64,000 bases of DNA from Candidatus Hydrogenedentota bacterium (GTDB taxonomy: Bacteria; Hydrogenedentota; Hydrogenedentia; Hydrogenedentales; CAITNO01). Shown piece after piece: positions 1,319 to 15,841 of this stretch. Numbering within the stretch: the stretch's first letter is position 1; the number at the start of each line of letters is the position of its first letter. The DNA lies in NCBI GenBank assembly GCA_019455225.1, contig JACFMU010000010.1:975-64974 (forward strand). The letters run 5' to 3'. The translations under genes and the position numbers were made by a program. The notes beneath the pieces were generated by a model that did not search any database, was not told the origin of the DNA, and saw nothing but the letters and a program-made list of their open reading frames with translations.

Positions 1319-1770
1319 CCCCCGAACCTGTTCCCCGGCGCGACTTTCTGGGACTGGCCGGCACGGCCGCGGCCGGGCTGGCCGTGGCCGGGTCCCTTGC
1401 CGGACTGGCCCGCCTGCCCAAGCCCAGCGTGTTGCCCGAGGCGTCCCGCCGGTTCCGCGCGGGGAAACCCGAGGAATTCACGCCGGGGACGGTCAAGATT
1501 GTCCAGGAGCACAATGTCCGGCTCATCGGCACGGAGCAGGGGGTGGCGGCGCTGTCCCTTGTGTGCACCCATCTGGGCTGCATCGTCGCGGAGTCCCCGG
1601 AAGGCTTCAAGTGCCCCTGCCACGGGTCGAAGTTCACCCACGAGGGCAAAGTGACGGCGGGCCCCGCGCCGCGTCCGCTCCGCTGGCTGGCGGTTTCGCG
1701 GGCGGCCGACGGCAGCCTCGTGGTGGACAAGGATGTGGAAGTGGCCCCCAACCAGTTTTTCAAGGCTTGA
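1303..1770 (+). CDS. Rieske [2Fe-2S] iron-sulfur protein with Tat signal (bc-complex subunit)
   Basis: Twin-arginine motif RRDFLGLAG. Rieske boxes CTHLGC and CPCHGS. ATG at 1303 overlaps the upstream stop by 16 bp. Confidence 0.9.
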   Translation: MPDRLAPEPVPRRDFLGLAGTAAAGLAVAGSLAGLARLPKPSVLPEASRRFRAGKPEEFTPGTVKIVQEHNVRLIGTEQGVAALSLVCTHLGCIVAESPEGFKCPCHGSKFTHEGKVTAGPAPRPLRWLAVSRAADGSLVVDKDVEVAPNQFFKA

Positions 1771-1786: not shown

Positions 1787-3334
1787 ATGGCATCCAACGG
1801 ACTGGGCACCTTTCTGGAAAACATGGCCGGACTTCCGCGCAATTTCGCCGCATCCCTGATACGGCACGGGGCGCCCACCTCGGACAGGGCGCGGTCCCAG
1901 ACGGTCTTCTCCAATTTTTTCCTCCACGTCCACTCGACCCGCGTCCATCCGGACTCCCTGCGTCCGGCGGCCACCTGGGGGCTGGGCGTGTCCCTTCTTT
2001 CACAGTTTGCCATACTCGCCGTGACGGGCGTGCTGCTCATGGTTTACTACAGCGCCTCCACGGAGCTGGCCTACAACTCCATCAAGGACCTGCATTACGT
2101 GGTGCCCACGGGCCGGTTCGTCCGGAACATCCACCGGTGGGCCGCGCATCTCATGGTGGCGTTTTTGTTCCTGCACATGGCGCGCGTGTTTTACACCTCG
2201 GCCTACAAGGGGCCGAGGGAGTTCAACTGGGTCGTGGGCATGGCGCTCATGGTGCTCACGCTGATGTTCTCCTTCACGGGGTATCTGCTTCCCTGGGACC
2301 AGCTCGCCTATTGGGCCGTCACCATCGGCGCGAACATCGCCGCCTCGCCCAACGAACTGGCCGAGGCACTCGGCCTGCCGCGGGTGTTTCACCTGGGCAG
2401 CCTGCAGAAAGAGCTTCTGCTGGGCGCCTCGAATGTGGGCCAGGAGGCCCTCACCCGCTTCTACCTGCTGCATGTTATGGTGCTGCCCATCCTGTTTCTC
2501 TGCGTGGCGGGGGTCCACCTGTGGCGCATCCGCAAGGACGGGGGTCTGGCGCGCCCGGAAGGCACCCCGACACCGGCGGGAAAAGGGGCGGGCACCATGT
2601 CCCCCACTCCCCGGAGCGCCGAGGAGGCGCCGGAAAAAAGCTACGGGCTGATGGCGGTTGTGCGGGACCGGTCCCCGCACACGGGGAAAAGCATGGACGA
2701 GACCGTCCCGGCCTGGCCCTATCTCATGCGCGCGGAGCTGCTGGTCTTCATGGCGAACATGCTGCTGTGCGTGGCGCTTGGGCTTCTTTTTGACGCGCCG
2801 CTCAAGGAGATGGCCAGTCCGGACATCCCCGAGAACCCGGCCAAGGCGCCCTGGTATTTCCTGGGACTGCAGGAGATGGTCTCCTATTCCGCCTTTGTGG
2901 GCGGCATCGTGATCCCCTCGATTGTGGTGTTCGGCCTGGCCCTCATTCCCTACCTTGACCGGGAGCGCGAGGCGTCGGGCGTGTGGTTCAGCGGGAGGCG
3001 CGGCGTCCGCGTCACCCTGCTGTCCGCGGTGGCGGGCACCGCGCTGGCCGTGGCCTCGGTGGCCTTTCCCGTGAACTATGGCTGGCTCCGCTCATGGTAT
3101 CCGGAGATCCCGCAACTGGTCATTATTTTGATCAATCCGGGCAGCCTGCTGACGGCGGCCTACGCCCTGTGGTCCGTGGCCGTGATCCAGCGGACCCGGT
3201 CCACCCGCATGGGCGCCGTGGCGCTTTTCACCTGCTTCCTGGCGGGCTTTATCGTGCTCACCTACGTCGGCACCAGTCTGCGCGGGCCCAACTGGGACTT
3301 CTACTGGAGCCAAAGCCAATGGCCGTCGCATTAA
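1787..3334 (+). CDS. Cytochrome b (fused cytochrome b6 + subunit IV-like, ~516 aa)
   Basis: Motifs HRWAAHLMV...FLHMARVFYTSAYKGPREFNWVVG...GYLLPWDQLAYWAVTIG are typical of PetB/cyt b6. The C-terminal half is a multi-TM extension. AAGGAG RBS before ATG 1787. Confidence 0.9.
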   Translation: MASNGLGTFLENMAGLPRNFAASLIRHGAPTSDRARSQTVFSNFFLHVHSTRVHPDSLRPAATWGLGVSLLSQFAILAVTGVLLMVYYSASTELAYNSIKDLHYVVPTGRFVRNIHRWAAHLMVAFLFLHMARVFYTSAYKGPREFNWVVGMALMVLTLMFSFTGYLLPWDQLAYWAVTIGANIAASPNELAEALGLPRVFHLGSLQKELLLGASNVGQEALTRFYLLHVMVLPILFLCVAGVHLWRIRKDGGLARPEGTPTPAGKGAGTMSPTPRSAEEAPEKSYGLMAVVRDRSPHTGKSMDETVPAWPYLMRAELLVFMANMLLCVALGLLFDAPLKEMASPDIPENPAKAPWYFLGLQEMVSYSAFVGGIVIPSIVVFGLALIPYLDREREASGVWFSGRRGVRVTLLSAVAGTALAVASVAFPVNYGWLRSWYPEIPQLVIILINPGSLLTAAYALWSVAVIQRTRSTRMGAVALFTCFLAGFIVLTYVGTSLRGPNWDFYWSQSQWPSH

Positions 3335-3347: not shown

Positions 3348-4793
3348 GTGATGTCGGAAGAAAAAATCAAATCCCTTGACCACAGGCACAAATGGGCGCT
3401 GCTGGCGGTGAGCCTGGCCACGCTGGCGCTGCTGGCGGCGTCCGCCCTGAGCGAGAACGTGTTCGCCCCCTGGCGCATGGTGCGGGCCAAGTACGCCGCC
3501 ACGCTCGAGTCCAAGGCGGACGACGAGCAGGGGCGGCTGTTGGCGGCGGGGTTCAAGAACGAGATTGTCCAGAATGTCGTGCCCGAGCTGAACGTGGTGG
3601 ACCGCTGCGTCACCTGCCATCCGGGCCTGGACGATCCGCGCATGGCCGACGAGCCGCAGCCGTACCGCACGCATCCGGGCGACTATCTTGAGCATCACCC
3701 CCCCGAGCGCTACGGGTGCACCATCTGCCACCAGGGGCAGGGGCGCGCCACCGTGCTCGCCGACGCGAAGGCCTCGGATGTCCACTGGGACTATCCGCTG
3801 CTGCCCGGCGAGTTTGCGCAGTCAAGTTGCGCCATGTGCCACGCGCCCGACCAGCTCGGCGAGAGCGCCCCGCTGGCGGCGAGGGGATACGCGCTCTTTG
3901 TGGAGAACGGCTGCTTCGGCTGCCACAAAGTCGGCGGGGTCGGCGGGGCCATGGGTCCGGTGCTGGACCGCGTGGGGGTGAAGAAGAAGGCGGCGTACCC
4001 GTTCGCCCACATCGAGGGCGAGCGCACCATCGCCAACTGGCATGTCGAGCACCTGCTTGACCCCCAGAAGATAGTCCCGGACACGACGATGAAAAACTTC
4101 AACTTCTCCCGGGAGGACGCGGTGGCGATCACCAACTACATCCTTTCCCTGCGCGGCCTGGAGATACCCATGAGCTACATCCCCAGGGACCGCATCGCGT
4201 GGGAGTACAACAAGACCTTCCGCCCGACCCTCACCGGCAGGGACCTTTACGGGCGCTACTGCTCGGCCTGCCACCAGGACGGCATGGCCTCCCATTTTGA
4301 TCCGGTGCTGGGCCGCCACATACCCACGGTGAGAAACCCCGCCTTTCTGGCGTTCGCGACGGACGACTTTCTGCGGCAAACCATCGAGCGGGGCCGTCCG
4401 GGGCGGGACATGCCCGCATGGGGCGAAACGGCGGGCGGGCTGCGCGCCGATGAAATAGACAACCTGGTCGCCTATCTCCGGGAGGGCGCGCCCCTCTCGC
4501 CCGACTATGACGAGACCTACCGGGCGGCGGGCGACGCCGGCCGCGGCGGGCTCCTTTTCGAGCGGAACTGCTCGGGCTGCCACGGCGACCACGGGGAGGG
4601 CCTGAAGGCGCCCTCGCTCGCCAACACGGTGTTTCAGGAGACGGCGTCGGACGCGTATCTCCAGGCGACGATAAAGCACGGCCGCCACGGCACGGCCATG
4701 GCGGGCTTTGGCCAGGACTCTCCCTCATTTTCAGCGCTGACCGACAGGGAAGTCGGGGACCTTGTCATGTTCATCAGGGCCTTAAAACGATAA
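3348..4793 (+). CDS. Membrane-anchored hexaheme c-type cytochrome (bc-complex-associated)
   Basis: Six CxxCH motifs (CVTCH, CTICH, CAMCH, CFGCH, CSACH, CSGCH). N-terminal TM helix [19 protein letters not shown]. Confidence 0.85.
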
Positions 4794-4804: not shown

Positions 4805-7800
4805 ATGGCTGAGGAAAAGGAGACGCGCGGAGAAAGCACCCGGCGCGAGTTTCTGCGGCAGAGCGCCGCGCTCGGATTTGCGGCGTTTGTCTCGCAGGGC
4901 GCGCGCGCCTGGGGACTGGACACGGCCGCCAACCCGCTGGACAATTACCCGGACCGGGACTGGGAGAAGGTTTACCGCGACCTGTTCCAGCACGACAGCA
5001 CCTTCACCTTTTTGTGCGCGCCGAACGACACCCACAACTGTCTTCTGACGGCGTATATGAAAAACGGGATTCTGACCCGGATCAGCCCGACCTACCGGTA
5101 CGGCGAGGCGTCTGATTTGGACGGGAACAAAGCGTCGCACCGGTGGGATCCGCGCTGCTGCCAGAAGGGCCTCGCGCTGGTGCGCCGTTTTTACGGGGAC
5201 CGCCGCGTGAAGGGGCCCTGCGTCCGCAAGGGCTTCAAGGAGTGGGTGGACGCCGGATTTCCGCGGGACGCGGTGACGGGCGCGCCGCCGGAGCAGTACT
5301 TCCGGCGCGCGGAAGACTCCTGGCTCCAGTTGTCCTGGGACGAGGTGTCGGAGATTTCGGCGAAGGCGCTTCACAACATCGCCGAAGCTTATTCCGGGGA
5401 GGAGGGGGCAGGGCGCCTCAAGGCGCAGGGGCATTATTCGGACGAGATGATAGAGACCTGCCACGGGGCGGGCACGCAGGTGCTCAAGTTCCGCGGGGGG
5501 ATGCCCCTGCTCGGCACGCGGATATACGCGATGAACCGCTTCGCCAACGGCCTGGCGCTGCTGGACAACCACATCCGGAAGACCGGGCCGGAGGGGTCGT
5601 TCGGCGGCCGGGGATGGGACAGCTACTCGTGGCACACGGACCTGCCCCCGGGGCATCCCATGGTCACGGGCCAGCAGACGGTGGACTTTGACCTGTGCTC
5701 CGTGGAGCACTCCAAAATGGTCATCGTCTGGGGGATGAACTGGATTTGCACCAAGATGCCCGACAGCCACTGGCTGACGGAGGCCCGGATGAAGGGCGTG
5801 AAGGTGGTCGTCATCGCCTGCGAGTACAGCGCCACGGCGTCCAAGGGGGACGAGGTGCTTGTGGTGCGCCCGGGGACCACCCCGGCGCTGGCCCTTGGCC
5901 TGGCAGGCGTGATCATGCGGGAAAACCTGCAGGACACGGACTATGTGAAGAAGTACACGGACATGCCGCTGCTGGTCCGGCTGGACACGCGCGCCCTGCT
6001 CAGCGCGCAGGATGTCCTGGGCGGCGAACCGGCGCCCCTGACGAACTTCACCAAAGTGTTCGGGAAAGACGAGACGCCCCCGCCGCCCGTCAGGCAGAGC
6101 ACCCAGTGGATTCCCAAGGAGATGCGCGACGCGTGGGGGGACTTCATCGCGTGGGACACCCGGGAAAACAGGCCCGCCAGGGTCACCCGCGACGATGTGG
6201 GCGAAAACTTCACGCAACTGGGCGTCGAGCCCGCGCTCGAGGGCCGGTTCCAGGTCACCCTGCAGGACGGTAGCACCGTGGAGGCCGCGCCCATTTACGC
6301 GCTCATCAAGGAGCACCTGGAGCGCAACTACAATCCCCAGACGAGCTCGGGGATCACCTGGGCGCCGCCGGAGGCCATCGAGAAACTGGCGCGGGAGATA
6401 GCGAAGAACGCGCGCGCGACCATGTTCCCGGTCGGAATGGGCCCCAACCAGTTCTTCAACAACGACCTGAAGGACCGGTCCGTCTTTCTCCTGGCGGCGC
6501 TCACGGGCAACGTCGGGAACATTGGCGGGAACGTCGGCAGTTACGCCGGCAACTACCGCACCGCCCATTTCAACGGGTACCCCCAGTTCATTTACGAGAA
6601 CCCCTTCGACATCGAGACGGACCCCGCGAAGCCCGCGCGCGTCAAGTCCTACTGGAAGGGCGAGTCCGCCCACTTCTTCAATTACGGCGACCGCGAGCTC
6701 CGCGTGGGGAACAAGAATTTCACGGGGAAGGGCCACACCCCCACGCCGACCAAATCGGTCTGGCTCTCGAACTCGAACTCCATCATCGGCAACGCAAAAT
6801 GGCATTACGACCTCGTCTACAACACGCTTCCCAAGGTGGAGATGCTGGCCGTGTCGGACTGGTGGTGGACCGCGTCCTGCGAGTGGGCGGACATTGTCTT
6901 CGGCGTGGACTCCTGGGCGGAGATGAAAAGTCCGGACATGACCGCGTCGGTGACCAACCCCTTTCTGACTGTTTTCCCGGACACCCCCCTTCCGCGCCTC
7001 TTCGACACGCGCGGGGACATGGAGGTGCTGGCCCTGGTCAGCGACAAACTTGCGGCCATCACCGGCGACACGCGCTTCAGCGACCTGTGGCGGTACGCGC
7101 ACGGCGGGAAAACGCAGGTTTATCTCCAGCGCATATTGAACATGAGCAACTCCGCGGCGGGATACCAGATAGCCGACCTGCTGGGGAGCGCCAAGGAGGG
7201 CGTCCCCGCGCTGATGATGACCCGGACCACGCCCAGGTCGGTGGGGTTCGAGCAGGTCCATGAAAACAGGCCCTGGTACACCAAAACCGGCCGCCTCACC
7301 TTTTACATTGACGAGCGGGAGTTCATCGAAAACGGCGAGAACCTCCCCGTGCACCGGGAGCCCGTGGACTCGACGTTCCATGAGCCGAACGTGATTGTGT
7401 GCGCGCCCGACCCGCTGCTGAACCCGCTAACCCCGCGGGACTGCGGGTTTGCGGAGGACGACCTCGGGGTTGAAACACGGCAGGGCCGCCACGTGATCAA
7501 GCGCTGGGAGGATGTCTCCAAGACCAGCCACCCCCTGATGAAAGACGGCTTCAAGTTCATCATGCACACCCCGAAGTACCGGCACGGCGCGCACACCACG
7601 CCCATAGACACGGACATCATCGCGGTGTATTTCGGCCCCTTCGGGGACATTTTCCGGCATGACACGCGCAAGCCCTTCGTCACCGAGGGGTATGTGGACA
7701 TCAACCCCGGCGACGCCCGTGAAATCGGGGTGGATGACGGCGACTATGTCTGGATTGACGCGGACCCGTCCGACAGGCCCTTCCGAGGCCAGACCGCCGG

Positions 7801-8278
7801 GGACGGGCGCCTCAAGGTCAGCCGGCTTCTGGCGCGCGCCCGCTACTACAACGGCACCCCGAGGGGCGTCACCAGGATGTGGTTCAACATGTATGGGGCA
7901 ACGCCGGGCAGCGTGCGGGGCCAGCGCGAGCGCGGGGACGGGCTCGCAAAAAATCCGGATACCAATTACCAGGCCATGTTCCGCAGCGGATCGCACCAGA
8001 GCGGCACGCGGGCCTGGCTGAAGCCGACGCTGATGACGGACTCCCTGGTCCGCAAGGAGGGCATGGGGCACGCCATCAACAAGGGCTTCCTGGCCGACGT
8101 CCACTGCCCGACCGGCGCGCCCCGCGAGACCTTTGTGAAAATCACCAAGGCGGAGGACGGCGGCATCGGCGGGACGGGGAAGTGGAAGCCCCTGACCATG
8201 GGCATCCGCCCGACAAACGAGAGCGAGACGTTCAGGAAGTACCTGGACGGCGGATTCATAGAAGCGGCCGAACGCTGA
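4805..8278 (+). CDS. Periplasmic molybdopterin oxidoreductase alpha subunit, NarG/NxrA-type (type II DMSO-reductase family), Tat-exported, 1157 aa
   Basis: Tat motif [17 protein letters not shown]. The N-terminal Fe-S (FS0) region [20 protein letters not shown]...DPRCCQKG aligns with NarG HGVNCTGSCSWKIYVKNG...RGCPRG. Its length matches the NxrA/NarG size class. It is followed by the beta, gamma and delta genes. Confidence 0.85.
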
Positions 8279-8288
8279 GGATTGTGTC

Positions 8289-9416
8289 ATGGCCCAAGTA
8301 TTCAATTGGCAGATAGGCCGGGAAATGGACTACTGGTACACGGGGGTGCGTCCCGGCAGGCAGTTCGGCGCGGTCTTTGACATCAACAAGTGCATCGCGT
8401 GCCAGACCTGCACCGTGGCGTGCAAGACCACCTGGACCGGGGGCCGCGGCCAGGAGTACATGTTCTGGAACAACGTTGAAAGCAAGCCCTTCGGGTTCTA
8501 TCCCATCATGTGGGACGTGAAACTGCTCGAGATGCTGGGGCCCGGCGCGTGGCGGGAGGGCGTGTACGAGGGGCGGACCATCTTCGAGTCAGCGCCGGCG
8601 AAGGAGCGGGTGCTGGGCTGGAAGCCCACCGACTATGACTATGCCCACCCGAACCTGGGCGAGGACGAGGCGAGCAGCCCGGTGGACGGCGGGCTCATGA
8701 TGGAGGGGAAGCATGCGGCGTGGATGTTTTATCTGGCGAGAATCTGCAACCACTGCACCTATCCCGCCTGCCTTGCCGCATGCCCCCGCGGCGCCATTTA
8801 CAAGCGGAAAGAGGACGGCATTGTCCTGGTGAACCAGAAAAACTGCCGCGGCTACCAGGAGTGCGTGAAGGCGTGCCCCTACAAAAAAACCTTCTACAAC
8901 GCGGTCGAGGGGGTTTCCCAGAAATGCATCGCGTGCTATCCCGCCGTGGAGCGGGGGTTTCAGCCGCAGTGCTTCAAGGCGTGCATCGGCAAAATCCGAA
9001 TGCAGGGCTGGGCGCATCCGCCGGAGCGGGCCGAAGAGGACAATCCGATAGATTACCTGGTGCATGTCAGGAAACTGGCGCTGCCCCTGCTGCCCCAGCT
9101 CGGCCTGGAGCCGAATGTCTACTACATCCCGCCCGTTCACGCCTCGGACGCGTTTCTGGCCCAGATGTTCGGCCCCGCCGCGAAACAGGCCGTCCAGACC
9201 TATCTTGAAGCCCGGAACGACAAAGTTCTGGCCGGTCTTCTCACCCTGCTCGGGTCAACACACCGGACGGTTGATTATTTCAAAATCGAGGGCGACGAGG
9301 CCGTGGCCCTGGACGCGGAACGGTCCGAATTCTGCCGGGTGCCCATCAGTGAGCCCGTGGTCACCCGGAACGCCTACGATGAAATCGCGCAGGTGGGCCG
9401 CCACAACATTACCTGA
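8289..9416 (+). CDS. Molybdoenzyme beta subunit, NarH/NxrB-type, 4 Fe-S clusters
   Basis: Cys clusters [38 protein letters not shown] and CIACYPAV...CFKACIG. No signal peptide, consistent with a Tat hitch-hiker. Confidence 0.85.
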
Positions 9417-9450
9417 AGTGGAACAAGGAAGGACTGGACAGGTGAGCATC

Positions 9451-10353
9451 ATGAAGAAATCCGGGTTGGCCGCGCTGCTTTTGCTTCTCATGTCGTGCAC
9501 GAAAGTGCCGCCCGCCGCGCCGAACAGAATCATGGCGGGCTATTTGGAGGGTGATCTGGGCGCCCTGAGCATCGGGGACCCCCGGTGGGACGGCGCCGTG
9601 GAGACCCCCATACCGCTCAAACAGCAGCTCATCGCCCTGCCAAAGTCCGAGCAGGACGGGGTGGCGCAGATTGGTGTGCGGGCGTTTTACAACGGGGAAT
9701 GGGCCGCCTTTTTGCTGACCTGGAGCGACCCCACGCCGGACCATCTCACAAAGATGGGCAGTTTCAGCGACGCTGCCGCCATGGAGTTTCCCATGGAGCC
9801 GGGCGACCTGCCGGACAGCGCCATGGGCGGCGCGCCGGGAAGCGCGAAGCCGGTGCTGATTCACCAGTGGAAGGCCGTGTGGCAGGAGGCCGAGGCGGGG
9901 AACATCCAGGGCATAAAAACCTTCTATCCCAACACCTGGAGCGACGTGTATCTCTTCGAGATGCCGGGAACTCCGGAGGCGCGGGCGAAGATGGAGCGCA
10001 CCTTCACCACATCCGTGGCGGCGGAAAACCCCCTGGCACACCACGGCAAGGCGGTTCGCGACCTTGAGGCCGTCGGCTTTGGCTCGGTGAACCCGTCGGA
10101 GGAGCAACTGTCCAAGGGGAACGGCGAGTGGGCGGACGGGAAATGGCGCGTGCTTATTGTCAGGCCGGTGGCAAGGCTGCGGGGGGGGCTGGACACGACC
10201 CGGCTGCTCCACGCCGCCTTTGCGGTCTGGGACGGCGCCAAGGGCGAGGTGGGCGCGCGAAAGATGCAGAGCGCCTGGACGCCCCTGGAGTTCCTTAAAC
10301 CGGCGGCGCATGCCTCCAACCCCAAAGGCGGGAACAGCCGTGGACAACATTAA
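9451..10353 (+). CDS. Gamma subunit, EbdC/NxrC-like periplasmic heme-b protein with Sec/lipoprotein-type signal
   Basis: Signal LAALLLLLMSCT. The soluble domain has no TM helices, unlike NarI. Its position after the beta gene is as in type II enzymes (Ebd/Ser/Ddh/Nxr). Confidence 0.65.
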   Translation: MKKSGLAALLLLLMSCTKVPPAAPNRIMAGYLEGDLGALSIGDPRWDGAVETPIPLKQQLIALPKSEQDGVAQIGVRAFYNGEWAAFLLTWSDPTPDHLTKMGSFSDAAAMEFPMEPGDLPDSAMGGAPGSAKPVLIHQWKAVWQEAEAGNIQGIKTFYPNTWSDVYLFEMPGTPEARAKMERTFTTSVAAENPLAHHGKAVRDLEAVGFGSVNPSEEQLSKGNGEWADGKWRVLIVRPVARLRGGLDTTRLLHAAFAVWDGAKGEVGARKMQSAWTPLEFLKPAAHASNPKGGNSRGQH

Positions 10354-10933
10354 AGACAGCCCGTACGCGAAACTGGTTGGGGACGCGGCGGCCTACCGCC
10401 TGTTTTCCCTTGTCTTTCAGCCGCCGCATCCGGACCTGCCCGCGCAGATTGCCGCGCTGGGCCGAGAGGTCCGGGGGCCCGTGGCGGAATTGCCGAAAGC
10501 ATGCGGCAGCATGGATATGGAGGAGTATCACTTCATCCTCGGCCCGGCGGGCGGATGCTCCCCGTGCGAGTCGGAGTACCTCGGCGACAAGCTTGGGGGC
10601 AAGGGAAGCCTCATGGCGGATGTGGCGGGTTTTTATGACGCGTTTTCCTTTCCCCGCGACGCCGACACCCAGGAGAGGGTTGATCACATTGCGGTCGAGC
10701 TTTCCTTCATGAGTTTTCTCCTCCTCAAGACGGCCTATGCCGCGCACCGCGGCAACGCCCCCGGGGTGAACGTGTGCGCCGATGCGGGGGTCAAGTTCGC
10801 AAAGACCCATTTGCTGCCCTGGCTCAACCCCTTTCGGGAAAGGCTTGACACCGTGGCGCCCGGCTCGTTCTATGCGCGGGCGGCAACGGTGATGTGCGGC
10901 TGCCTGCCGGATGGATTCGGAACGGGTGACTGA
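10310..10933 (+). CDS. NarJ/TorD-family redox enzyme maturation chaperone (delta subunit)
   Basis: All-helical ~200-aa ORF overlapping the gamma gene stop. It is in the canonical position of the NarJ/EbdD/NxrD assembly chaperone. The start could also be GTG 10340. Confidence 0.7.
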   Translation: MPPTPKAGTAVDNIKDSPYAKLVGDAAAYRLFSLVFQPPHPDLPAQIAALGREVRGPVAELPKACGSMDMEEYHFILGPAGGCSPCESEYLGDKLGGKGSLMADVAGFYDAFSFPRDADTQERVDHIAVELSFMSFLLLKTAYAAHRGNAPGVNVCADAGVKFAKTHLLPWLNPFRERLDTVAPGSFYARAATVMCGCLPDGFGTGD

Positions 10934-12150
10934 TGCTGACTGACTGTCTGACTGGAATACGCCCCAAGCCCCGCACGGTCAAAGGCAAACCGTGGCCGGG
11001 GGGGATTTCCTTTGGCCGGGGGGAATGGTCGGGCGCATTTGGAGACATCGGCACGGACCTTCCCCTGCTGGTGGGCGTCATCCTGGTTTCCGGCATGGGT
11101 CCGGGGCGGGTGCTGCTGGTGTTCGGGCTGGCGCAAATCCTCTCCGGCCTGGTCTACCGCATGCCCATGCCCGTGCAGCCCCTAAAAGTTGTTGCGGTCC
11201 TGGTGATGGCCCAGGGCCTCCAGGGCAATGTGATCGCGGGCGGGGGACTCGCCATCGGGGTGGTCATGCTCGCGCTGACACTCACCGGCGCGCTGGACTT
11301 CCTGGCGCGGCTGGTTCCGGTGCCGGTGGTGCGCGGAATTCAGTGCGGACTGGGCGTCAAGCTGGCGCTGCTTGCCGCGGGGGACTATGTCATCGGCCAT
11401 GGCGCGCCGGGCATCCTTATGGCGTTTGCCGCGGTGCTGCTGCTGCCGGTGATGACGGGCCGCCCCAAGATTCCCGCATCGTTGGCCCTTCTGGCGTTGG
11501 GCGCGGCGGCGGCATGGCTCGGCGGGGCCGCCAACGGGGCCGGATGGCAACTGCCGCCGGCGGTTCAGCCGTGGTCCCTTCCGTCCACGGCGGACATCTG
11601 GGCCGGTTTTATCCTGCTGGCGCTTCCCCAGATTCCCCTGTCGCTGGGCAATTCAGTGCTTGCGACGCGCGAGCTGGCCATGGACTGGTTTCCCGAAGCC
11701 CGTGTGTCCGCCAAAAAAATCGGGTTCACGTATTCGCTGTTCAATATTGCCATCGCCTTTGTCGGCGGTGTGCCGGTGTGCCATGGGGCGGGGGGCATCG
11801 CGGGGCATTACGCCTTTGGCGCCCGCACCGGGGGTTCCGTGATTGTCTACGGTGGGTTCTTTGCGCTGCTGGGCGCCTGCGCGCTTCTCGGGCTGGGAAA
11901 TGTTCTGGCGCTGTTTCCGCTCCCCATATTGGGTGTGATTCTGGCCCGGGAAGGGCTCGCGCTCATGGGAAGGGTGCGGGGACTGGGGCATGACCCGGCG
12001 GCGCTGGCCACCGCGCTCCTCGTGTGCGTGCTGGCTGTGTTTCTTGCCAACGGGTTCCTGGCGGGCATGGTCGCCGGAACGCTCTTTTTTTGGGCATGCC
12101 GCAGGATGAGCATGCCCGGCGCCGCGTTGCCTGAAACGGAAACAGAGTGA
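10933..12150 (+). CDS. Polytopic membrane transporter, possibly MOT1/SulP-related molybdate transporter
   Basis: About 12 predicted TM segments. The N-terminal motif GAFGDIGTDLPLL resembles the GDLGT-IPI signature of MOT1-family molybdate transporters. It lies between the molybdoenzyme and Moco genes. Confidence 0.45.
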   Translation: MLTDCLTGIRPKPRTVKGKPWPGGISFGRGEWSGAFGDIGTDLPLLVGVILVSGMGPGRVLLVFGLAQILSGLVYRMPMPVQPLKVVAVLVMAQGLQGNVIAGGGLAIGVVMLALTLTGALDFLARLVPVPVVRGIQCGLGVKLALLAAGDYVIGHGAPGILMAFAAVLLLPVMTGRPKIPASLALLALGAAAAWLGGAANGAGWQLPPAVQPWSLPSTADIWAGFILLALPQIPLSLGNSVLATRELAMDWFPEARVSAKKIGFTYSLFNIAIAFVGGVPVCHGAGGIAGHYAFGARTGGSVIVYGGFFALLGACALLGLGNVLALFPLPILGVILAREGLALMGRVRGLGHDPAALATALLVCVLAVFLANGFLAGMVAGTLFFWACRRMSMPGAALPETETE

Positions 12151-12159: not shown

Positions 12160-13269
12160 ATGGGAACAGGTGCTGAGATTCAGATGGAAGACGCCGGGAG
12201 CCGGCTGGAACGGCTCCCCGTGGCGCTTGTCGCAGGACACAGCGGCTCCGGCAAGACGACGCTCATCGAGCGGCTCGTGCCCCGGCTGATTGCCGGCGGG
12301 CTGAGGGTGGCCGTTGTCAAGCATGACGCGCACGGGCTGAACCTGGACCATCCGGGAAAGGACAGCGACCGGTTTTTCCGCGCGGGCGCGGCGGTGCTGG
12401 CCGGGGGACCGGGCGAGACCTTTCTCCGCATGCCGGGCACATGGGATTTGGAGGACGCCGCGCGCCGTCTGCTGCGGTCGAATGACCTGGTGCTTGTGGA
12501 GGGGCACAAAAACACGCGGGGACCCCTAAAAATCTGGCTGCGCGGCGGGGGAGAGGACGCGCCGCCGCCGGAGGCCGGGGACGCCGTGATGTGTCTTGAC
12601 CGGAACGAGCCGCGCGTTGCGATTGTCCACCGTTTTCTTCTGGAGTGGCTGGCGCGCCAATGGCTGCGCACCCCCGTGCGGGCGGGCGTTCTCATCGGCG
12701 GGAAGTCCTCGCGGATGGGCTCGCCGAAGCATCTGCTCCGCCACGGGGGGAAAAGCTGGGCGGCGCGTGTGGCGGCGGCCTTCGCCGGACACGCCGACTC
12801 CATCGTCCTGCTTGGGGCGGGGGACGCCCCCCCAGAGTTGGGTGAGTGCCCGCGGCTGCCGGATGTGCCCGGGTGCGCGGGCCCCATTGCGGGCATGCGC
12901 GCGGCCATGCGCTGGGACCCGGACGCGTCATGGATATTCGCGCCCTGCGACATGCCCCTTCTCACACCGGAAACCGTCGCCTGGATGCTTGCTCGGCGGA
13001 AGCCCGGAAGATGGGCGGTGATGCCCCGCCAAAGCCGTCAGGAACCGGCCGAGCCGCTGTTTGCCTGGTACGACTTCCGCGCGGCGGAATTGATGGAAAA
13101 GGTGTTAGCCCCGAGGGAATTGGCCGGATGGTCCCGCTCCCACACCGCGCTGATCCCGGGCGCGTTGGGGCGGGCGCTGAAAAACATGAACACGCCGCAT
13201 GACGCCGAAGGGCTCAGGGGCGCCCAGGACGGCCGCAACGCCCCGGCGGCGGCCGCGGGAGGTTTCTGA
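12160..13269 (+). CDS. mobA: MobB-MobA fusion (molybdopterin-guanine dinucleotide biosynthesis)
   Basis: N-terminal MobB P-loop VALVAGHSGSGKTTLIERL. C-terminal MobA-like GVLIGGKSSRMGSPKHLL...FAPCDMPLL. Confidence 0.8.
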   Translation: MGTGAEIQMEDAGSRLERLPVALVAGHSGSGKTTLIERLVPRLIAGGLRVAVVKHDAHGLNLDHPGKDSDRFFRAGAAVLAGGPGETFLRMPGTWDLEDAARRLLRSNDLVLVEGHKNTRGPLKIWLRGGGEDAPPPEAGDAVMCLDRNEPRVAIVHRFLLEWLARQWLRTPVRAGVLIGGKSSRMGSPKHLLRHGGKSWAARVAAAFAGHADSIVLLGAGDAPPELGECPRLPDVPGCAGPIAGMRAAMRWDPDASWIFAPCDMPLLTPETVAWMLARRKPGRWAVMPRQSRQEPAEPLFAWYDFRAAELMEKVLAPRELAGWSRSHTALIPGALGRALKNMNTPHDAEGLRGAQDGRNAPAAAAGGF

Positions 13270-13270
13270 C

Positions 13271-13732
13271 ATGCGCAAACTGTCGCATTTGAACAGCCAG
13301 GGCCGCGCCGTCATGGTGGATGTGGGGAACAAGGAGGTCCAGCGGCGAAACGCCGTAGCCGGGGGGAAGATCCGTCTGGCCGGGGAAACGGTGGCGCTTA
13401 TCCGGGACAGTCTTCTGAAGAAAGGGGACGTTTTGTGTGTCGCGGAAATCGCGGGGATACAGGCGGCCAAGCGGACCGCCGGCTTGATCCCACTCTGCCA
13501 TCCGCTACCCCTGACGGACATCAAAGTGACCGCGACCCTGGAGGATGACGGGGTTAGGGTGACGGGGAGTGTGTCCTGTCTGGGGAGGACGGGCGTGGAG
13601 ATGGAGGCGCTCACCGCCGTCAGCGCCGCGCTGCTGACGGTGTATGACATGTGCAAGGCCGTTGACAAGCACATGGTGATCGGGGACATCGCCCTTTTGA
13701 AGAAGACCAAGCAACCGGCTGGAGGGCGCTGA
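13271..13732 (+). CDS. moaC: Cyclic pyranopterin monophosphate synthase accessory protein MoaC
   Basis: LSHLNSQGRAVMVDVGNKEV...GLIPLCHPLPL...VEMEALTAVSAALLTVYDMCKA is typical of MoaC. Confidence 0.85.
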   Translation: MRKLSHLNSQGRAVMVDVGNKEVQRRNAVAGGKIRLAGETVALIRDSLLKKGDVLCVAEIAGIQAAKRTAGLIPLCHPLPLTDIKVTATLEDDGVRVTGSVSCLGRTGVEMEALTAVSAALLTVYDMCKAVDKHMVIGDIALLKKTKQPAGGR

Positions 13733-13735
13733 GTC

Positions 13736-14704
13736 ATGGCGGTTCACGCGCGGGAAAGTGTTTTTGCGGCAGCGGCCAGGGGGACGGTGGCGTCATTAAA
13801 CGTCTCGGAGTCCAAGGGCACCTGCAAAACGCCGGTTTCCGAGGTGCAGGTGACGGAGCTGGGGTTTGCCGGGGACGCCCATGCGGGCGGCTGGGGCAGG
13901 CAGGTCAGCCTGCTCTCCCTGGAAAGCGTGGGGCGCTTCGGCGGCATCGTCGGAAAAGAGTACAAGCCGGGCGATTTTGCCGAGAACATCACAACCATGG
14001 GGCTTGCGCTGGAAAAGACGGCCCTGCTTGACCGGTTCAGCGCCGCCGATGTGGAGCTTGAAGTCACCCAGTTGGGCAAAAAATGCCACGGCAAGGGCTG
14101 CGCCATCTTCCAGGGGGCGGGCAAATGCCTGATGCCCACGGAGGGGATTTTCACCCGCGTGCGAAGGGGCGGAACCCTGCGCGGGGGGGATGAGATACTC
14201 CACCACCCCAAACGGCTTCGTGTCCGTGTGATCACCCTGAGCGACCGCGCAAGCCGCGGGGTGTATGAGGACCGGAGCGGGCCCAGGATTGTGGAGCTGC
14301 TGGGAAGCCTGTTTGGCGGAAAACCGTGGGAAATGGACACGGACACGCGGCTGCTGCCGGACGACCCGCGGCTGCTGGACGAGGAACTGCGCGGGGCCTG
14401 CCTGGACGGCCTGGACGCGGTGTTCACCACCGGCGGCACGGGAATCGGGCCCAGGGACTGGACCCCCGATGTGGTCACCGCCATGGCCGACAAGACGATA
14501 CCGGGGATCATGGAGGCCGTCCGGATGAAATACGGCGCGGAAAACCCCGCCGCACTGCTCAGCCGGTCCGTGGCCGCAGTCGCGGGCGCCACCCTGATTT
14601 ACACGCTTCCCGGCTCCGTCCGGGCCGTGGAGGAATACCTGGGCGAAATCGCCAAGACCTTTAATCATCTTCTTCTGACCGTCCACGGCATTGACAGCCA
14701 CTGA
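13736..14704 (+). CDS. mogA: MOSC domain fused to MogA/MoaB-type molybdopterin adenylyltransferase
   Basis: N-terminal MOSC beta-barrel (GDFAENITTMG, KCHGKGC). The C-terminal region VITLSDRAS...GGTGIGPRDWTPDV matches MogA. Confidence 0.75.
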   Translation: MAVHARESVFAAAARGTVASLNVSESKGTCKTPVSEVQVTELGFAGDAHAGGWGRQVSLLSLESVGRFGGIVGKEYKPGDFAENITTMGLALEKTALLDRFSAADVELEVTQLGKKCHGKGCAIFQGAGKCLMPTEGIFTRVRRGGTLRGGDEILHHPKRLRVRVITLSDRASRGVYEDRSGPRIVELLGSLFGGKPWEMDTDTRLLPDDPRLLDEELRGACLDGLDAVFTTGGTGIGPRDWTPDVVTAMADKTIPGIMEAVRMKYGAENPAALLSRSVAAVAGATLIYTLPGSVRAVEEYLGEIAKTFNHLLLTVHGIDSH

Positions 14705-14781
14705 CGGCCCTTCGGCAACCATGGGCAACAGACCATCACCGGGCTCCGGCGCGGGAAGACACTTTCAGGAAAGCACGACGC

Positions 14782-15804
14782 ATGGCGGCGGCGGCCAAAA
14801 CAGTCAAATCGGTTGAGTCCGGCATGTTGCGCGACGGATGCGGCCGCGTTCATGACTATCTGCGCATTGCCGTGACGGACCGGTGCAACCTGCGGTGCCT
14901 GTACTGCATGCCCTCCGGTGTCAAATGCGCGGCGCCGGCCGAAACGCTGCTCACGGATGATGAGATTGTCCGGATCAGCCGCCTGTTCGCGCGGCTCGGG
15001 GTGGTCAAAATCCGCCTGACCGGCGGGGAGCCGCTGCTGCGGCCGGGGATTTCCGGCCTTGCGGCCAGACTCGCCGCCGTTTCCGGCATACACACGGTCG
15101 CCGTGACGACCAACGGGCTGCGCCTCGCCGAAAAGGTCCGCGCGCTCCGGGACGCCGGCGTGCGCGGAATCAATGTGAGCCTGGACAGTCTGCGCCCGGA
15201 GCGTTTCCGGCGGATTGCCGGCCATGACGGCCTGGCGCGCGTGCTGGACGGAATCGCGGCGGCGCTTGACTGCGGGATTCAGCCCCTCAAAATCAACATG
15301 GTGGTGATGGGCGGGCTGAACGACGATGAATTGTTGGACTTTGTGGAGCTCACCCGCAACAGCCCGGCATGCGTCAGGTTTATCGAGTTCATGCCGTTTC
15401 CGGGAAATCCCTGGTGCGACGCGCAGGTGGTCCCCCATGCGGCCATGCGGAAAGCCATCGAGTCCCGGCACCCCCTTGAGACGGTTTCCGGCACAGTCCG
15501 GGGGCGGGTCGCGAAAGAGTTCAGGGTGCCCGGTTTCAGGGGGTCCCTCGGCTTCATCACGCCGATGACGGACCATTTCTGCGGGGGCTGCTCCAGGCTC
15601 CGGCTCACTGCGGACGGTTCCCTGAAGACCTGCCTTTTTCATGCGCCCGAATTCAGCCTGCGCGACGCGATGCGCGGCGGGGCGGATGACGGGGACCTGG
15701 CGGACATGGTCCAGAGCGCGCTGAAGGGCAAGCCGCGCGCCCATGCGGAGGGCGCCGTCCTGGTCGCGGGGGGAGGCAGGAGCATGTTTCAGATTGGCGG
15801 TTGA
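14782..15804 (+). CDS. moaA: GTP 3',8-cyclase MoaA (radical SAM)
   Basis: CNLRCLYCM radical-SAM motif. C-terminal CGGCSRLRLTADGSLKTCLF cluster. Confidence 0.9.
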   Translation: MAAAAKTVKSVESGMLRDGCGRVHDYLRIAVTDRCNLRCLYCMPSGVKCAAPAETLLTDDEIVRISRLFARLGVVKIRLTGGEPLLRPGISGLAARLAAVSGIHTVAVTTNGLRLAEKVRALRDAGVRGINVSLDSLRPERFRRIAGHDGLARVLDGIAAALDCGIQPLKINMVVMGGLNDDELLDFVELTRNSPACVRFIEFMPFPGNPWCDAQVVPHAAMRKAIESRHPLETVSGTVRGRVAKEFRVPGFRGSLGFITPMTDHFCGGCSRLRLTADGSLKTCLFHAPEFSLRDAMRGGADDGDLADMVQSALKGKPRAHAEGAVLVAGGGRSMFQIGG

Positions 15805-15841
15805 CGGGCATTGGGTTGATTCGCGCGCAAGGAGCCGGACA

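What the first reader, a model, noticed from the sequence alone, without database searches (positions are those of the whole stretch)
4805..10353. Periplasmic (Tat) NxrA-size alpha subunit paired with a short NxrB-like beta and soluble EbdC-like gamma: candidate nitrite oxidoreductase
The alpha subunit is 1157 aa, the NxrA/NarG size class. Ebd/Ser/Clr alpha subunits are roughly 910-980 aa. It carries a twin-arginine leader, so the active site faces the periplasm, as in Nitrospira, Nitrospina and anammox NXR. This is unlike the cytoplasmic E. coli NarGHI. The gamma subunit is a signal-peptide-bearing soluble heme-b protein, not a NarI-like membrane anchor. The beta subunit (375 aa) is shorter than Nitrospira NxrB (~430 aa). 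A His-containing N-terminal Fe-S (FS0) motif is present: CAPNDTHNC ... DPRCCQKG. From sequence alone the direction (NO2- oxidation versus NO3- reduction) and even the substrate are not decidable.
Basis: partly seen in the sequence, partly recalled or inferred. Interest (0 to 1): 0.7.

Follow-up and report, generated by a model that had tools for sequence, protein, structure and literature searches.

The report
Periplasmic NXR-like nitrate reductase module
The genes are real and encode an exported molybdenum enzyme related to nitrite oxidoreductase, but it belongs to a widespread sister group whose only cultured members breathe nitrate, so it is most likely a nitrate reductase fed by its own cytochrome bc-type complex rather than a marker of a new nitrite oxidiser.

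Summary
The three ORFs exist as described: alpha 4805-8278 (1157 aa, Tat leader), beta 8289-9416 (375 aa), and an EbdC-like gamma ending at 10353. Two details are wrong. The FS0 cluster is 3Cys/1Asp (C71/D75/C79/C119), as in Kuenenia NXR, not His-ligated. The gamma is a lipoprotein (conserved Cys16), not a soluble protein.

The finding is the core of a larger same-strand cluster: NfnB-like NAD(P) oxidoreductase, Rieske, cytochrome b, hexahaem c, alpha, beta, gamma, NarJ-like delta, then molybdate transport and Mo-cofactor genes.

Kuenenia NXR is the closest solved structure, but at only about 40% identity. The alpha is 63-65% identical to enzymes of Thermogutta terrifontis, Thermostilla marina and Thermopirellula anaerolimosa. 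In an NJ tree it sits in a 100%-supported sister clade ("B") to the anammox/Nitrospinota NXR clade ("A").

Clade B loci across more than 10 phyla share the eight-gene module and a 375-aa beta. The two clade A loci inspected differ (beta 423 aa, cytochrome c-EB_dh gamma, no bc module).

Best reading (about 0.6): a quinol-dependent periplasmic respiratory nitrate reductase. Nitrite oxidation is not excluded. It is a new member of a known, uncharacterised kind.

The parts
2..1318 (+). C-terminal 438 aa of an NfnB/GltD-like NAD(P) oxidoreductase (FAD/NAD(P) domain plus two C-terminal CxxCxxCxxxC [4Fe-4S] motifs). The gene is cut by the window start. Homologues are 631-644 aa and have an N-terminal Fer4_20 domain.
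   Evidence: Pyr_redox_2, Fer4; NF009410 235 bits. (frame open from nt 2; L001 homologue 631 aa). (best PDB relatives are NfnB-like modules; Fer4_20 present in L001 and Thermogutta). (Cys motifs).
1303..1770 (+). Rieske [2Fe-2S] protein with a Tat-like PRRDFL anchor and the motif CTHLGC...CPCH-GS-K-F (Ser/Phe second sphere). The ORF extends to 1219; the ATG at 1303 is the likely start.
   Evidence: PF00355. (motif, TM segment). (GSxF is typical of the family). PMC12954380 for the Ser/Phe pairing in Kustd1480.
1787..3334 (+). Fused cytochrome b plus subunit-IV-like membrane protein (515 aa from the ATG at 1787; the ORF extends to 1733). About 9 predicted TM segments and no CxGG haem c_n motif.
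   Evidence: Cytochrome_B; ExtP 230 bits plus ExtQ 57 bits. (TM count; CxGG 0 of 71; family median 516 aa).
3348..4793 (+). Membrane-anchored hexahaem cytochrome c (6 CxxCH, one N-terminal TM). Most relatives have 7 CxxCH.
   Evidence: Cytochrome_CBB3, Cytochrom_C, multihaem families..
4805..8278 (+). Alpha subunit, 1157 aa. Tat leader. FS0 ligands C71/D75/C79/C119. Substrate-positioning N74. Mo ligand D279 within the motif HTDLPPGHP.
8289..9416 (+). Beta subunit, 375 aa, with four Cys groups (three [4Fe-4S] plus one [3Fe-4S]-type CxxYxxCxxxC). It has no signal peptide and is presumably co-exported with alpha.
   Evidence: sequence. (Fer4_11; TIGR03478 254 bits). (KsNXR-B 361 bits, with internal deletions). 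(375 aa is the clade norm).
9451..10353 (+). Gamma subunit, 300 aa. EbdC/NxrC-like haem b protein with a lipoprotein-type signal (Cys16) and conserved axial ligands Met125 and Lys271.
10340..10933 (+). Delta: a NarJ/TorD-family assembly chaperone, 197 aa, overlapping the end of gamma.
   Evidence: PF02613; TIGR03482 51 bits. (same gene called in GCA_012515115.1).
10933..12150 (+). MOT1-family (MFS) molybdate transporter.
   Evidence: PF16983, 166 bits.
12160..17041 (+). Molybdenum cofactor genes on the same strand: MobB-MobA fusion (12160-13269), MoaC (13199-13732), MOSC-MoaB/Mog (13736-14704), MoaA (14782-15804), MoeA (15743-17041).

Best explanation
The locus encodes a Tat-exported, periplasm-facing molybdoenzyme of the NXR/Nar branch of the type II DMSO reductase family. 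It belongs to a distinct, widely transferred sister clade of the validated nitrite oxidoreductases, here called clade B or 'Thermogutta-type'. Its most likely physiological role is respiratory nitrate reduction.

Proposed electron path (inferred):
1. Quinol is oxidised at the co-encoded Rieske/cytochrome b complex.
2. One electron passes through the Rieske cluster and the membrane-anchored hexahaem cytochrome c.
3. It then reaches the lipid-anchored haem b of gamma (Met/Lys ligated), the four Fe-S clusters of beta and FS0 (3Cys/1Asp) of alpha.
4. It arrives at Mo-bisMGD, liganded by D279, where nitrate is reduced to nitrite in the periplasm.

Energy would be conserved by the bc-type complex. 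The second quinol electron either returns to the quinone pool (Q cycle) or passes through the cytoplasmic NfnB-like subunit to or from NAD(P). Delta inserts the cofactor before export. The downstream molybdate transporter and Mo-cofactor genes supply the cofactor.

Shown here: gene content, cofactor-ligand conservation, clade membership and synteny. Inferred: substrate, direction, the electron path, and the role of the NAD(P) module.
For: 1. The alpha is 63-65% identical to Thermogutta terrifontis THTE_1509, Thermostilla marina and Thermopirellula anaerolimosa, but 39-41% identical to anammox, NC10 and Nitrospinota NXR-clade proteins. Clade B has 100% bootstrap support, and clade A with its two stem sequences also has 100%.
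2. T. terrifontis and T. marina carry the same module: Rrf2 regulator, NAD(P) oxidoreductase, Rieske, cytochrome b, multihaem c, alpha, a 375-aa beta, EB_dh gamma and delta. Thermoguttaceae grow anaerobically with nitrate (PMC12288469). The T. terrifontis genome paper names this cluster as its respiratory nitrate reductase, next to complex III genes (PMC5673643).
3. The eight-gene module is conserved in nearly all of 80 related loci with enough flank. These come from Acidobacteriota, Binatia, Planctomycetota, Myxococcota, Acidimicrobiia, Zixibacteria and others, none a known nitrite oxidiser.
4. A Rieske/cytochrome b complex feeding a periplasmic Nar through a soluble b-type cytochrome has been proposed for haloarchaea and Methanoperedens (PMC3509893; PMC4683180).
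5. Related loci often carry Rrf2, Crp/Fnr, ScdA/YtfE-type Fe-S repair and YwiC-like genes. This gene set suggests an anaerobic nitrate-respiration and nitrosative-stress regulon.
6. The residues flanking the Mo-ligand Asp are DLPPG in clade B, as in the pNar/Ser/Clr-like outgroups, whereas clade A has DQAPG.
7. The two clade A loci inspected (one Planctomycetes, one Nitrospinota) have a different architecture: a 423-aa beta, a cytochrome c-EB_dh fused gamma, and no bc module.
Against: - No enzyme of clade B has been purified or knocked out. The link to nitrate respiration rests on the physiology of cultured relatives and on genome annotation.
- The closest solved homologue, KsNXR, works in both directions (PMC8387239). 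Clade B shares features with it that could support high-potential electron transfer away from nitrite: 3Cys/1Asp FS0, Met/Lys haem b, and a Ser/Phe Rieske like the +335 mV Kustd1480.
- An NAD(P)-linked bc complex would also suit reverse electron flow in a lithotroph.
- Nitrospira, Nitrospina gracilis, Nitrotoga, Hydrogenobaculum and Beggiatoa sequences could not be retrieved, so their position relative to clade B is untested here.
- An Rrf2 regulator also precedes a clade A locus, so it does not indicate direction.
- The 64-kb window has no nitrite reductase, NarK or oxidase genes to fix the physiology.
Confidence: 0.6

Rival explanations
1. It is a true nitrite oxidoreductase. Nitrite is oxidised in the periplasm, and electrons leave through gamma and the hexahaem cytochrome to a terminal oxidase. 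The NAD(P)-linked Rieske/cytochrome b complex runs in reverse to make quinol and NAD(P)H for growth or for supplementary energy.
For: - The best solved homologue is KsNXR, for all three subunits.
- The alpha has a Tat leader, 3Cys/1Asp FS0 and conserved N74 and D279.
- The gamma has Met/Lys haem b ligation, which Chicano 2021 says likely contributes to a high potential.
- Published MAG surveys have proposed NXR-like genes of Planctomycetota and Verrucomicrobiota as putative nitrite oxidases.
Against: - Identity to the NXR clade is only about 40%, and placement in the separate clade has 100% support.
- The cultured clade members are organotrophic facultative anaerobes that respire nitrate.
- The clade is spread through hundreds of heterotroph MAGs.
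- The architecture differs from the clade A loci inspected.
- The window contains no oxidase, nirK or CO2-fixation genes.
Confidence: 0.13
2. The whole eight-gene module is one electron-bifurcating machine. Quinol oxidation at Qo sends one electron downhill to nitrate through the NXR-like enzyme. The other goes uphill through the b haems and the NfnB-like Fe-S/FAD subunit to NAD(P)+. This is the scheme proposed for the anammox Kuste4569-74 and Kustd1480-85 complexes. It is a special case of the nitrate-reducing reading.
For: - The NAD(P) oxidoreductase gene sits first in the module in about 60 loci, and its end overlaps the Rieske gene in the window, L083 and L084.
- Its domain set (Fer4_20, FAD/NAD(P), 2x[4Fe-4S]) matches NfnB-type bifurcation modules.
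- The module shares a Ser/Phe Rieske, a hexahaem c and a 5-TM-like subunit IV part with the anammox complexes.
- The published energetics for nitrite at +380 mV are favourable. They apply even more favourably to nitrate at about +430 mV (own knowledge).
Against: - The cytochrome b lacks the CxGG haem c_n motif that is conserved in cytochrome b subfamilies G and L. Subfamily G is the one co-occurring with NAD(P)-binding oxidoreductases (0 of 71).
- Orthology to Kuste4570/Kustd1483 was not tested.
- The subunit could equally feed NAD(P)H electrons in.
- There is no biochemical evidence, even for the anammox complexes.
Confidence: 0.15
3. The enzyme acts on another oxyanion or substrate, for example chlorate, perchlorate, selenate, or a detoxification reaction, not the nitrate/nitrite couple.
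For: Type II DMSO reductases change substrate with few residue changes. All curated NCBIfam models score far below their cutoffs (TIGR03479 313 bits against 985). One clade A relative carries the automatic name 'perchlorate reductase'.
Against: - The substrate-positioning Asn and the Mo-ligand Asp are conserved with NXR/Nar.
- The nearest characterised relatives all handle nitrate or nitrite.
- Nitrate respiration in Thermoguttaceae has this cluster as its named reductase.
Confidence: 0.08

Closest known systems
Kuenenia stuttgartiensis nitrite oxidoreductase NXR-ABC (PDB 7B04; Chicano et al. 2021)
   Same: - Full-length homology of alpha (878 bits), beta (361 bits) and gamma (51 bits).
- Tat export.
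- FS0 with 3Cys/1Asp, plus the Asn70 and Asp275 equivalents.
- Four Fe-S groups in beta.
- Met/Lys haem b in an EbdC-like gamma.
- A NarJ-like chaperone.
   Different: - Alpha identity is only about 40%, and the protein sits in a separate, 100%-supported clade.
- The beta is 375 aa against 410 aa, with internal deletions.
- The gamma is a 300-aa lipoprotein.
- No NXR-T-like gene was recognised in the window (not tested directly).
- The residues next to the Mo-ligand Asp are DLPPG, not DQAPG.
- The enzyme is encoded behind a Rieske/cytochrome b/NAD(P) module.
Thermogutta terrifontis THTE_1506-1512 ('NarGHI' plus adjacent complex III; Elcheninov et al. 2017) and the Thermostilla marina homologue
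   Same: - Same clade, with 63-64% alpha identity.
- Same gene order: NAD(P) oxidoreductase, Rieske, cytochrome b, multihaem c, alpha, a 375-aa beta, EB_dh gamma, delta.
- Tat motif on alpha.
   Different: - The window enzyme belongs to a divergent subclade with P0002-P0004.
- It has a hexahaem rather than a roughly 550-aa heptahaem cytochrome.
- Mo-cofactor and molybdate transporter genes are appended.
- The published annotation as a cytoplasmic NarGHI does not fit. The alpha has a Tat motif. The gene at the position the paper calls NarI (my mapping from gene order) encodes an EB_dh-family protein.
Haloarchaeal Rieske/cytb-pNar cluster and the Methanoperedens Nar
   Same: A periplasm-facing, Tat-exported NarG-like alpha with a periplasmic b-type cytochrome (Orf7/EbdC-like) and NarJ. 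Electrons are proposed to come from quinol through a Rieske/cytochrome b complex.
   Different: - This is an analogous layout, not orthology. A haloarchaeal representative (Halorussus P0143) is 29% identical and falls among the outgroups.
- The haloarchaeal clusters have no cytochrome c gene, and their Rieske has low-potential Gly/Phe residues.
- No NAD(P) oxidoreductase is described for them.
Anammox NAD(P)-linked Rieske/cytochrome b complexes (Kuste4569-4574, Kustd1480-1485)
   Same: - A Rieske protein with Ser/Phe, as in Kustd1480.
- A b6-like cytochrome b with an enlarged subunit-IV part.
- A hexahaem cytochrome c.
- A cytoplasmic FAD/NAD(P) subunit with about four Fe-S clusters.
   Different: - Cytochrome b and subunit IV are fused here.
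- There is no CxGG haem c_n motif and no HAO-like octahaem partner.
- The partner here is an NXR-like molybdoenzyme.
- Sequence orthology was not tested.
E. coli-type cytoplasmic NarGHI
   Same: Same superfamily and size class of alpha, an Asp Mo ligand, a DLPP-type motif after the Asp (own recollection for E. coli), and a NarJ-type chaperone.
   Different: NarG has no Tat export, a His-ligated FS0 and a NarI dihaem membrane anchor that oxidises quinol directly. It scores 138 bits against 878 bits for KsNXR.

Membership tests
Type II DMSO reductase family (Nar/Nxr/Ebd/Ser/Clr/Pcr-type heterotrimers) | Asp side chain as the protein ligand of Mo-bisMGD in alpha | tested here: met
   D279 aligns with KsNXR Asp275. 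All 24 sequences displayed in the alignment have Asp at this column (residue role from PMC8387239).
Type II DMSO reductase family (Nar/Nxr/Ebd/Ser/Clr/Pcr-type heterotrimers) | N-terminal FS0 [4Fe-4S] motif (H/C)x3(C/D)x3C...C | tested here: met
   C71-x3-D75-x3-C79...C119.
Type II DMSO reductase family (Nar/Nxr/Ebd/Ser/Clr/Pcr-type heterotrimers) | Fe-S beta subunit, EbdC-like haem b gamma with Met/Lys ligands, and a NarJ/TorD-like chaperone | tested here: met
   Fer4_11 and four Cys groups in beta. EB_dh domain with Met125 and Lys271 invariant or nearly so. PF02613 for the chaperone.
Type II DMSO reductase family (Nar/Nxr/Ebd/Ser/Clr/Pcr-type heterotrimers) | Score above the curated NCBIfam cutoffs (TIGR03479, 03478, 03477) | tested here: not met
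   Scores against cutoffs: 313 vs 985, 254 vs 481 and 95 vs 170 bits. For TIGR03479, KsNxrA (339 bits) and the T. terrifontis alpha (300 bits) also fall below the cutoff. The alpha model therefore does not cover the NXR-like branch.
Periplasmic nitrite oxidoreductase (anammox/Nitrospina/Nitrospira lineage) | Placement of alpha inside the clade that holds physiologically or biochemically validated NXRs | tested here: not met
   Identity to Kuenenia, Brocadia, Scalindua and a Nitrospinota MAG is 39-41%. The sister clade is separated with 100% bootstrap. Caveat: Nitrospira and Nitrospina gracilis sequences were not obtainable. Published values place them 54-62% from each other and from Kuenenia (PMC3578206).
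Periplasmic nitrite oxidoreductase (anammox/Nitrospina/Nitrospira lineage) | Tat-exported alpha with a non-His FS0 (3Cys/1Asp) | tested here: met
   Some clade A members have a fourth Cys in place of the Asp.
Periplasmic nitrite oxidoreductase (anammox/Nitrospina/Nitrospira lineage) | Beta of about 410-430 aa and NXR-type accessory genes | tested here: not met
   The beta is 375 aa. For comparison: Kuenenia 410 aa, Nitrospina 425 aa, and 423 aa in two clade A loci. No Pfam match to a cytochrome bd-type oxidase was seen in the window. NXR-T was not tested directly.
Periplasmic nitrite oxidoreductase (anammox/Nitrospina/Nitrospira lineage) | Host oxidises nitrite for energy | not testable with these tools
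   Only 64 kb of a MAG named Candidatus Hydrogenedens sp. is available.
Thermogutta-type periplasmic NXR-like enzymes (unnamed clade B) | Monophyly with the T. terrifontis, T. marina and Thermopirellula enzymes | tested here: met
   63-65% identity. Clade B core has 100% bootstrap support.
Thermogutta-type periplasmic NXR-like enzymes (unnamed clade B) | Eight-gene module: NAD(P) oxidoreductase, Rieske, cytochrome b, multihaem c, alpha, a 375-aa beta, lipoprotein EB_dh gamma, delta | tested here: met
   All eight genes are present in this order in the window. The same order is found in L083, L084 and most of the 80 loci.
Thermogutta-type periplasmic NXR-like enzymes (unnamed clade B) | Supports anaerobic nitrate respiration | not testable with these tools
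   This rests on the reported physiology of Thermoguttaceae. No genetics or enzymology is available.
Archaeal-type pNar coupled to Rieske/cytochrome b | Tat alpha, periplasmic b-type cytochrome, and adjacent Rieske and cytochrome b genes | tested here: met
   The architecture matches the description in PMC3509893 and PMC4683180.
Archaeal-type pNar coupled to Rieske/cytochrome b | Orthology of alpha to haloarchaeal pNarG | tested here: inconclusive
   The only haloarchaeal sequence at hand (Halorussus P0143) is 29% identical and groups with the outgroups. Whether it is the pNarG of the published clusters is unknown.
Cytoplasmic NarGHI | No signal peptide, His-ligated FS0, NarI membrane anchor | tested here: not met
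   The alpha has a Tat leader and a Cys at the His position. The gamma is an EB_dh protein, not NarI. The TIGR01580 narG model scores 164 bits against a cutoff of 1084.
Anammox-type NAD(P)-linked Rieske/cytochrome b complex | Rieske, b6-like cytochrome b with enlarged subunit IV, multihaem c, and an FAD/NAD(P) subunit with several Fe-S clusters in one operon | tested here: met
   compared with the description in PMC12954380.
Anammox-type NAD(P)-linked Rieske/cytochrome b complex | CxGG motif for covalent haem c_n in cytochrome b (subfamilies G and L) | tested here: not met
   0 of 71 family members, the window copy included. The motif is described in PMC5600118.
Anammox-type NAD(P)-linked Rieske/cytochrome b complex | Sequence orthology to Kuste4569-4573 or Kustd1480-1485 | not tested

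The most novel reading that the evidence does not exclude
The conserved eight-gene module may be a self-contained electron-bifurcating supercomplex. It would oxidise quinol, reduce periplasmic nitrate through an NXR-like enzyme, and use that driving force to reduce NAD(P)+ on the cytoplasmic side. This is the mechanism proposed but never demonstrated for the anammox Rieske/cytochrome b complexes. Here the module occurs in cultivable Thermoguttaceae and in hundreds of soil, groundwater and wastewater heterotrophs.
Probability: 0.15. Interest if true: 0.75.

Novelty: new member of a known kind. Interest (0 to 1): 0.4.

Why it matters
Genes of this clade are routinely labelled narG/nxrA ('nitrate reductase / nitrite oxidoreductase alpha subunit') in metagenome annotations. 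Some studies have read NXR-like genes of this kind as evidence of new nitrite oxidisers in Planctomycetota and Verrucomicrobiota.

The clade is separate from the validated NXRs. It has its own architecture and cultured nitrate-respiring members. This argues for caution in nitrogen-cycle gene surveys, and it points to a possibly major, unstudied type of periplasmic nitrate reductase in Acidobacteriota-rich soils and wastewater.

The clade also offers cultivable organisms (Thermogutta, Thermostilla) for two open questions. The first is what sets the catalytic direction in NXR/Nar enzymes. The second is what NAD(P)-linked Rieske/cytochrome b complexes do.

Tried and rejected
1. Gamma haem ligand. 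I first read the gamma alignment as showing the axial Met replaced by Gln/Glu. Counting residues in the EbdC and KsNXR-C alignments showed that the true ligand, EbdC Met108 (= Ks Met155), aligns with the invariant Met125. The idea was dropped.
2. Placement of Nitrospira and Nitrospina. The 50%-identity representative search and three cluster look-ups were meant to locate these NxrA sequences. They returned no named Nitrospira or Nitrospina gracilis sequence, so those taxa are missing from the tree.
3. Rrf2 as a marker of nitrate respiration. This is weakened, because an Rrf2 gene also precedes a clade A locus.
4. Literature on Hydrogenedentes. Searches for Hydrogenedentes with nitrite oxidoreductase gave nothing specific.
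5. Other RNA genes. No tRNA or Rfam matches were found in the window.
6. Physiological markers in the window. No nirK/nirS/nrfA, narK, terminal oxidase or CO2-fixation genes were found in the 64 kb or conserved near the relatives' loci. Genome context does not settle the direction.
7. Identity with anammox bc complexes. Equating the bc module with the anammox subfamily G complexes was rejected, because the CxGG motif is absent.

Full report
**1. What is in the sequence**

The window is about 66% GC. They run at 4805-8278 (1157 aa), 8289-9416 (375 aa) and 9064-10353. Their third-position GC is 0.78-0.89, typical of genuine genes here.

- The alpha starts with a twin-arginine leader, STRREFLRQ...ARAW.
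- The true gamma starts at 9451 (MKKSGLAALLLLLMSC...; 300 aa). Public gene calls use the same start.
- A NarJ/TorD-family chaperone (10340-10933) overlaps the end of gamma.
- Upstream on the same strand lie four genes:
  - an NfnB/GltD-like NAD(P) oxidoreductase, cut by the window start;
  - a Rieske protein;
  - a fused cytochrome b/subunit-IV-like protein with about 9 predicted TM segments;
  - a membrane-anchored cytochrome c with six CxxCH motifs.
- Downstream follow a MOT1-type molybdate transporter, MobB-MobA, MoaC, MOSC-MoaB, MoaA and MoeA.

The finding is therefore the catalytic core of a cluster of about 17 kb and 15 genes on one strand.

**2. Cofactor sites**

I rebuilt the Kuenenia NXR-A sequence from the PDB alignments. 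Its numbering reproduces the published residues exactly. The structure paper was read (PMC8387239).

- *Alpha.* By alignment, the window alpha has FS0 ligands C71, D75, C79 and C119. It also has the substrate-positioning N74 and the Mo ligand D279. This is the 3Cys/1Asp FS0 of KsNXR.
- *Beta.* It has all four Cys groups, including a CxxYxxCxxxC [3Fe-4S]-type group.
- *Gamma.* It keeps both haem b ligands. Met125 corresponds to EbdC Met108 and Ks Met155 (73 of 73 homologues). Lys271 corresponds to EbdC Lys201 and Ks Lys305 (71 of 73). A lipobox Cys16 is conserved in 67 of 73. The gamma is therefore probably lipid-anchored rather than soluble.

**3. Where the alpha belongs**

*Database matches.*
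- The alpha is identical to a protein of a MAG named Candidatus Hydrogenedens sp..
- Kuenenia NXR is the best solved homologue for all three subunits: 878, 361 and 51 bits. This is far above PcrA (173 bits), EbdA (151) and NarG (138).
- All curated NCBIfam models score below cutoff. For the alpha model (TIGR03479) the same is true of KsNxrA and the Thermogutta alpha.

*Pairwise identities.*
- The window alpha is 39-41% identical to Kuenenia, Brocadia, Scalindua, NC10 and Nitrospinota proteins. Those are 62-85% identical to each other.
- It is 63-65% identical to the enzymes of Thermogutta terrifontis, Thermostilla marina and Thermopirellula anaerolimosa.

*NJ tree (62 sequences, 1126 columns, 200 bootstraps).*

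| Grouping | Bootstrap support |
|---|---|
| Clade B core (window, Thermoguttaceae, Acidobacteriota, Binatia, Planctomycetota, Zixibacteria and others) | 100% |
| Clade A (anammox, Nitrospinota, NC10 and others) plus two stem sequences | 100% |
| A and B together against TIGR03479-type outgroups | 100% |

Within clade B the window forms a 100%-supported subclade with P0002-P0004 (71-81% identity).

*Caveat.* Nitrospira and Nitrospina gracilis sequences could not be retrieved. Published identities place them 54-62% from each other and from Kuenenia, with Nitrospira at the base of the NXR branch (PMC3578206).

**4. Architecture separates the clades**

- Among 80 related loci from GTDB species genomes, out of 482 species with a relative, the eight-gene module is conserved wherever the flanks suffice. 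Its order is NAD(P) oxidoreductase, Rieske, cytochrome b, multihaem c, alpha, beta, gamma, delta.
- The median beta in these loci is 375 aa.
- T. terrifontis R1 and T. marina have exactly this module, preceded by an Rrf2 regulator.
- Two clade A loci look different. They have a 423-aa beta, a cytochrome c-EB_dh fused gamma, a small ORF after alpha and no bc module.
- One clade A planctomycete locus (L051) does have a divergent bc module, so the association is not exclusive to clade B.
- Next to the Mo ligand, clade B reads HTDLPPGHP, like the pNar/Ser/Clr-type outgroups. Clade A reads HGDQAPGHP.

**5. Function**

*The case for nitrate reduction.*
- No clade B enzyme has been characterised. However, Thermoguttaceae are chemoorganotrophic facultative anaerobes that use nitrate as an electron acceptor.
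- The T. terrifontis genome paper assigns nitrate respiration to THTE_1507-1509 and notes the adjacent complex III genes. That paper calls the enzyme a cytoplasmic NarGHI. This does not fit the Tat motif on alpha. It also does not fit the EB_dh-family gene at the position the paper calls NarI (my mapping from gene order).
- A Rieske/cytochrome b complex feeding a periplasmic Nar through a b-type cytochrome has been proposed for haloarchaea and Methanoperedens.
- Relatives' loci frequently carry Rrf2 (22 loci), Crp/Fnr (18), ScdA/YtfE-type repair proteins (18), YwiC-like proteins (14) and an AlgE-like porin (17). I read this set, from general knowledge, as characteristic of anaerobic nitrate-respiration and nitrosative-stress regulons.

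I therefore favour a quinol-dependent periplasmic nitrate reductase, with a probability of about 0.6.

*What keeps other readings open.* KsNXR is reversible. The shared 3Cys/1Asp FS0, Met/Lys haem b and Ser/Phe Rieske keep nitrite oxidation possible (about 0.13). A different substrate is unlikely but not excluded (about 0.08).

**6. The NAD(P) module**

- The first gene is an NfnB/GltD-type subunit with Fer4_20, an FAD/NAD(P) domain and two C-terminal [4Fe-4S] motifs.
- Together with the Ser/Phe Rieske, the hexahaem c and the enlarged subunit-IV part, it recalls the anammox Kuste4569-74 and Kustd1480-85 complexes. For those, quinol-driven bifurcation to NAD(P)+ and a high-potential acceptor has been proposed.
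- Here the obvious high-potential partner is nitrate. This is the most novel reading the data allow.
- The cytochrome b lacks the CxGG haem c_n motif of subfamilies G and L (0 of 71).
- Orthology to the anammox subunits was not tested.

**7. Prior knowledge and verdict**

NXR-like genes in Planctomycetota and Verrucomicrobiota have been reported, and sometimes read as putative nitrite oxidases. T. terrifontis appears in published NarG/NxrA trees as a nitrate reducer.

The window locus is thus a new member of a known but uncharacterised kind. The rest of the window holds ordinary heterotroph genes and two restriction-modification islands. It contains no nitrogen-cycle, oxidase or CO2-fixation markers.

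Noticed in passing
window 28078-34662: A low-GC island (0.56-0.61, against about 0.66 overall) carries a type I restriction-modification system: HsdM 28078-29868, HsdS 29865-31007 and HsdR 32146-34662. An ORF with a weak IS200-like Y1 transposase match (31004-32053) sits between hsdS and hsdR.
   Followed up: partly
window 42971-45000 (- strand): A second low-GC stretch (about 0.60) holds a likely type II restriction-modification pair: a NotI-like endonuclease (42971-43834) and an N4/N6 DNA methylase (43816-45000).
   Followed up: partly
window 26873-27916: A prepilin-type N-methylation motif plus a DUF1559 protein. This combination is, from my own knowledge, typical of Planctomycetota/PVC genomes, although the matching public protein is filed under Candidatus Hydrogenedens. 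The taxonomic assignment of the contig was not checked further.
   Followed up: no
L083 (Thermogutta terrifontis CP018477.1) 10001-15477: The published description of THTE_1507-1509 as a cytoplasmic NarGHI looks wrong. The alpha has an SRRDFL twin-arginine leader. The gene at the position the paper calls NarI (my mapping from gene order) encodes a 286-aa EB_dh-family protein with a lipoprotein-type signal.
   Followed up: partly
L036, L043, L046-L048, L053, L063, L075 and others, between alpha and beta: In Pyrinomonadaceae and 'Chloracidobacterium' MAG loci, an extra 165-aa multi-TM protein with no Pfam match is inserted directly after alpha. These loci also carry a 168-aa protein with no Pfam match about 2.5 kb downstream of alpha, and a DUF7009 gene further downstream.
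   Followed up: no
L085 7306-8880 and L086 7080-8349: In clade A non-anammox loci (Planctomycetes, Nitrospinota MAGs), the gamma subunit is a fusion of c-type cytochrome domains with EB_dh. A conserved ORF of 93-98 aa lies between alpha and the 423-aa beta.
   Followed up: no
17 related loci (e.g. L004-L006, L019, L023), mostly 2.5-3 kb downstream of alpha; also L084 16606-17741: An AlgE-like (Alginate_exp) outer-membrane beta-barrel gene lies on the same strand as the operon, mostly just downstream of it. It may be an anion porin bringing the substrate into the periplasm.
   Followed up: no
window 3348-4793 versus relatives: The window's cytochrome c has 6 CxxCH motifs in 481 aa, and the L001 homologue has a similar length (480 aa). 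Fifty-eight of 63 homologues have 7 CxxCH in about 553 aa. The window copy has therefore lost one haem domain.
   Followed up: partly
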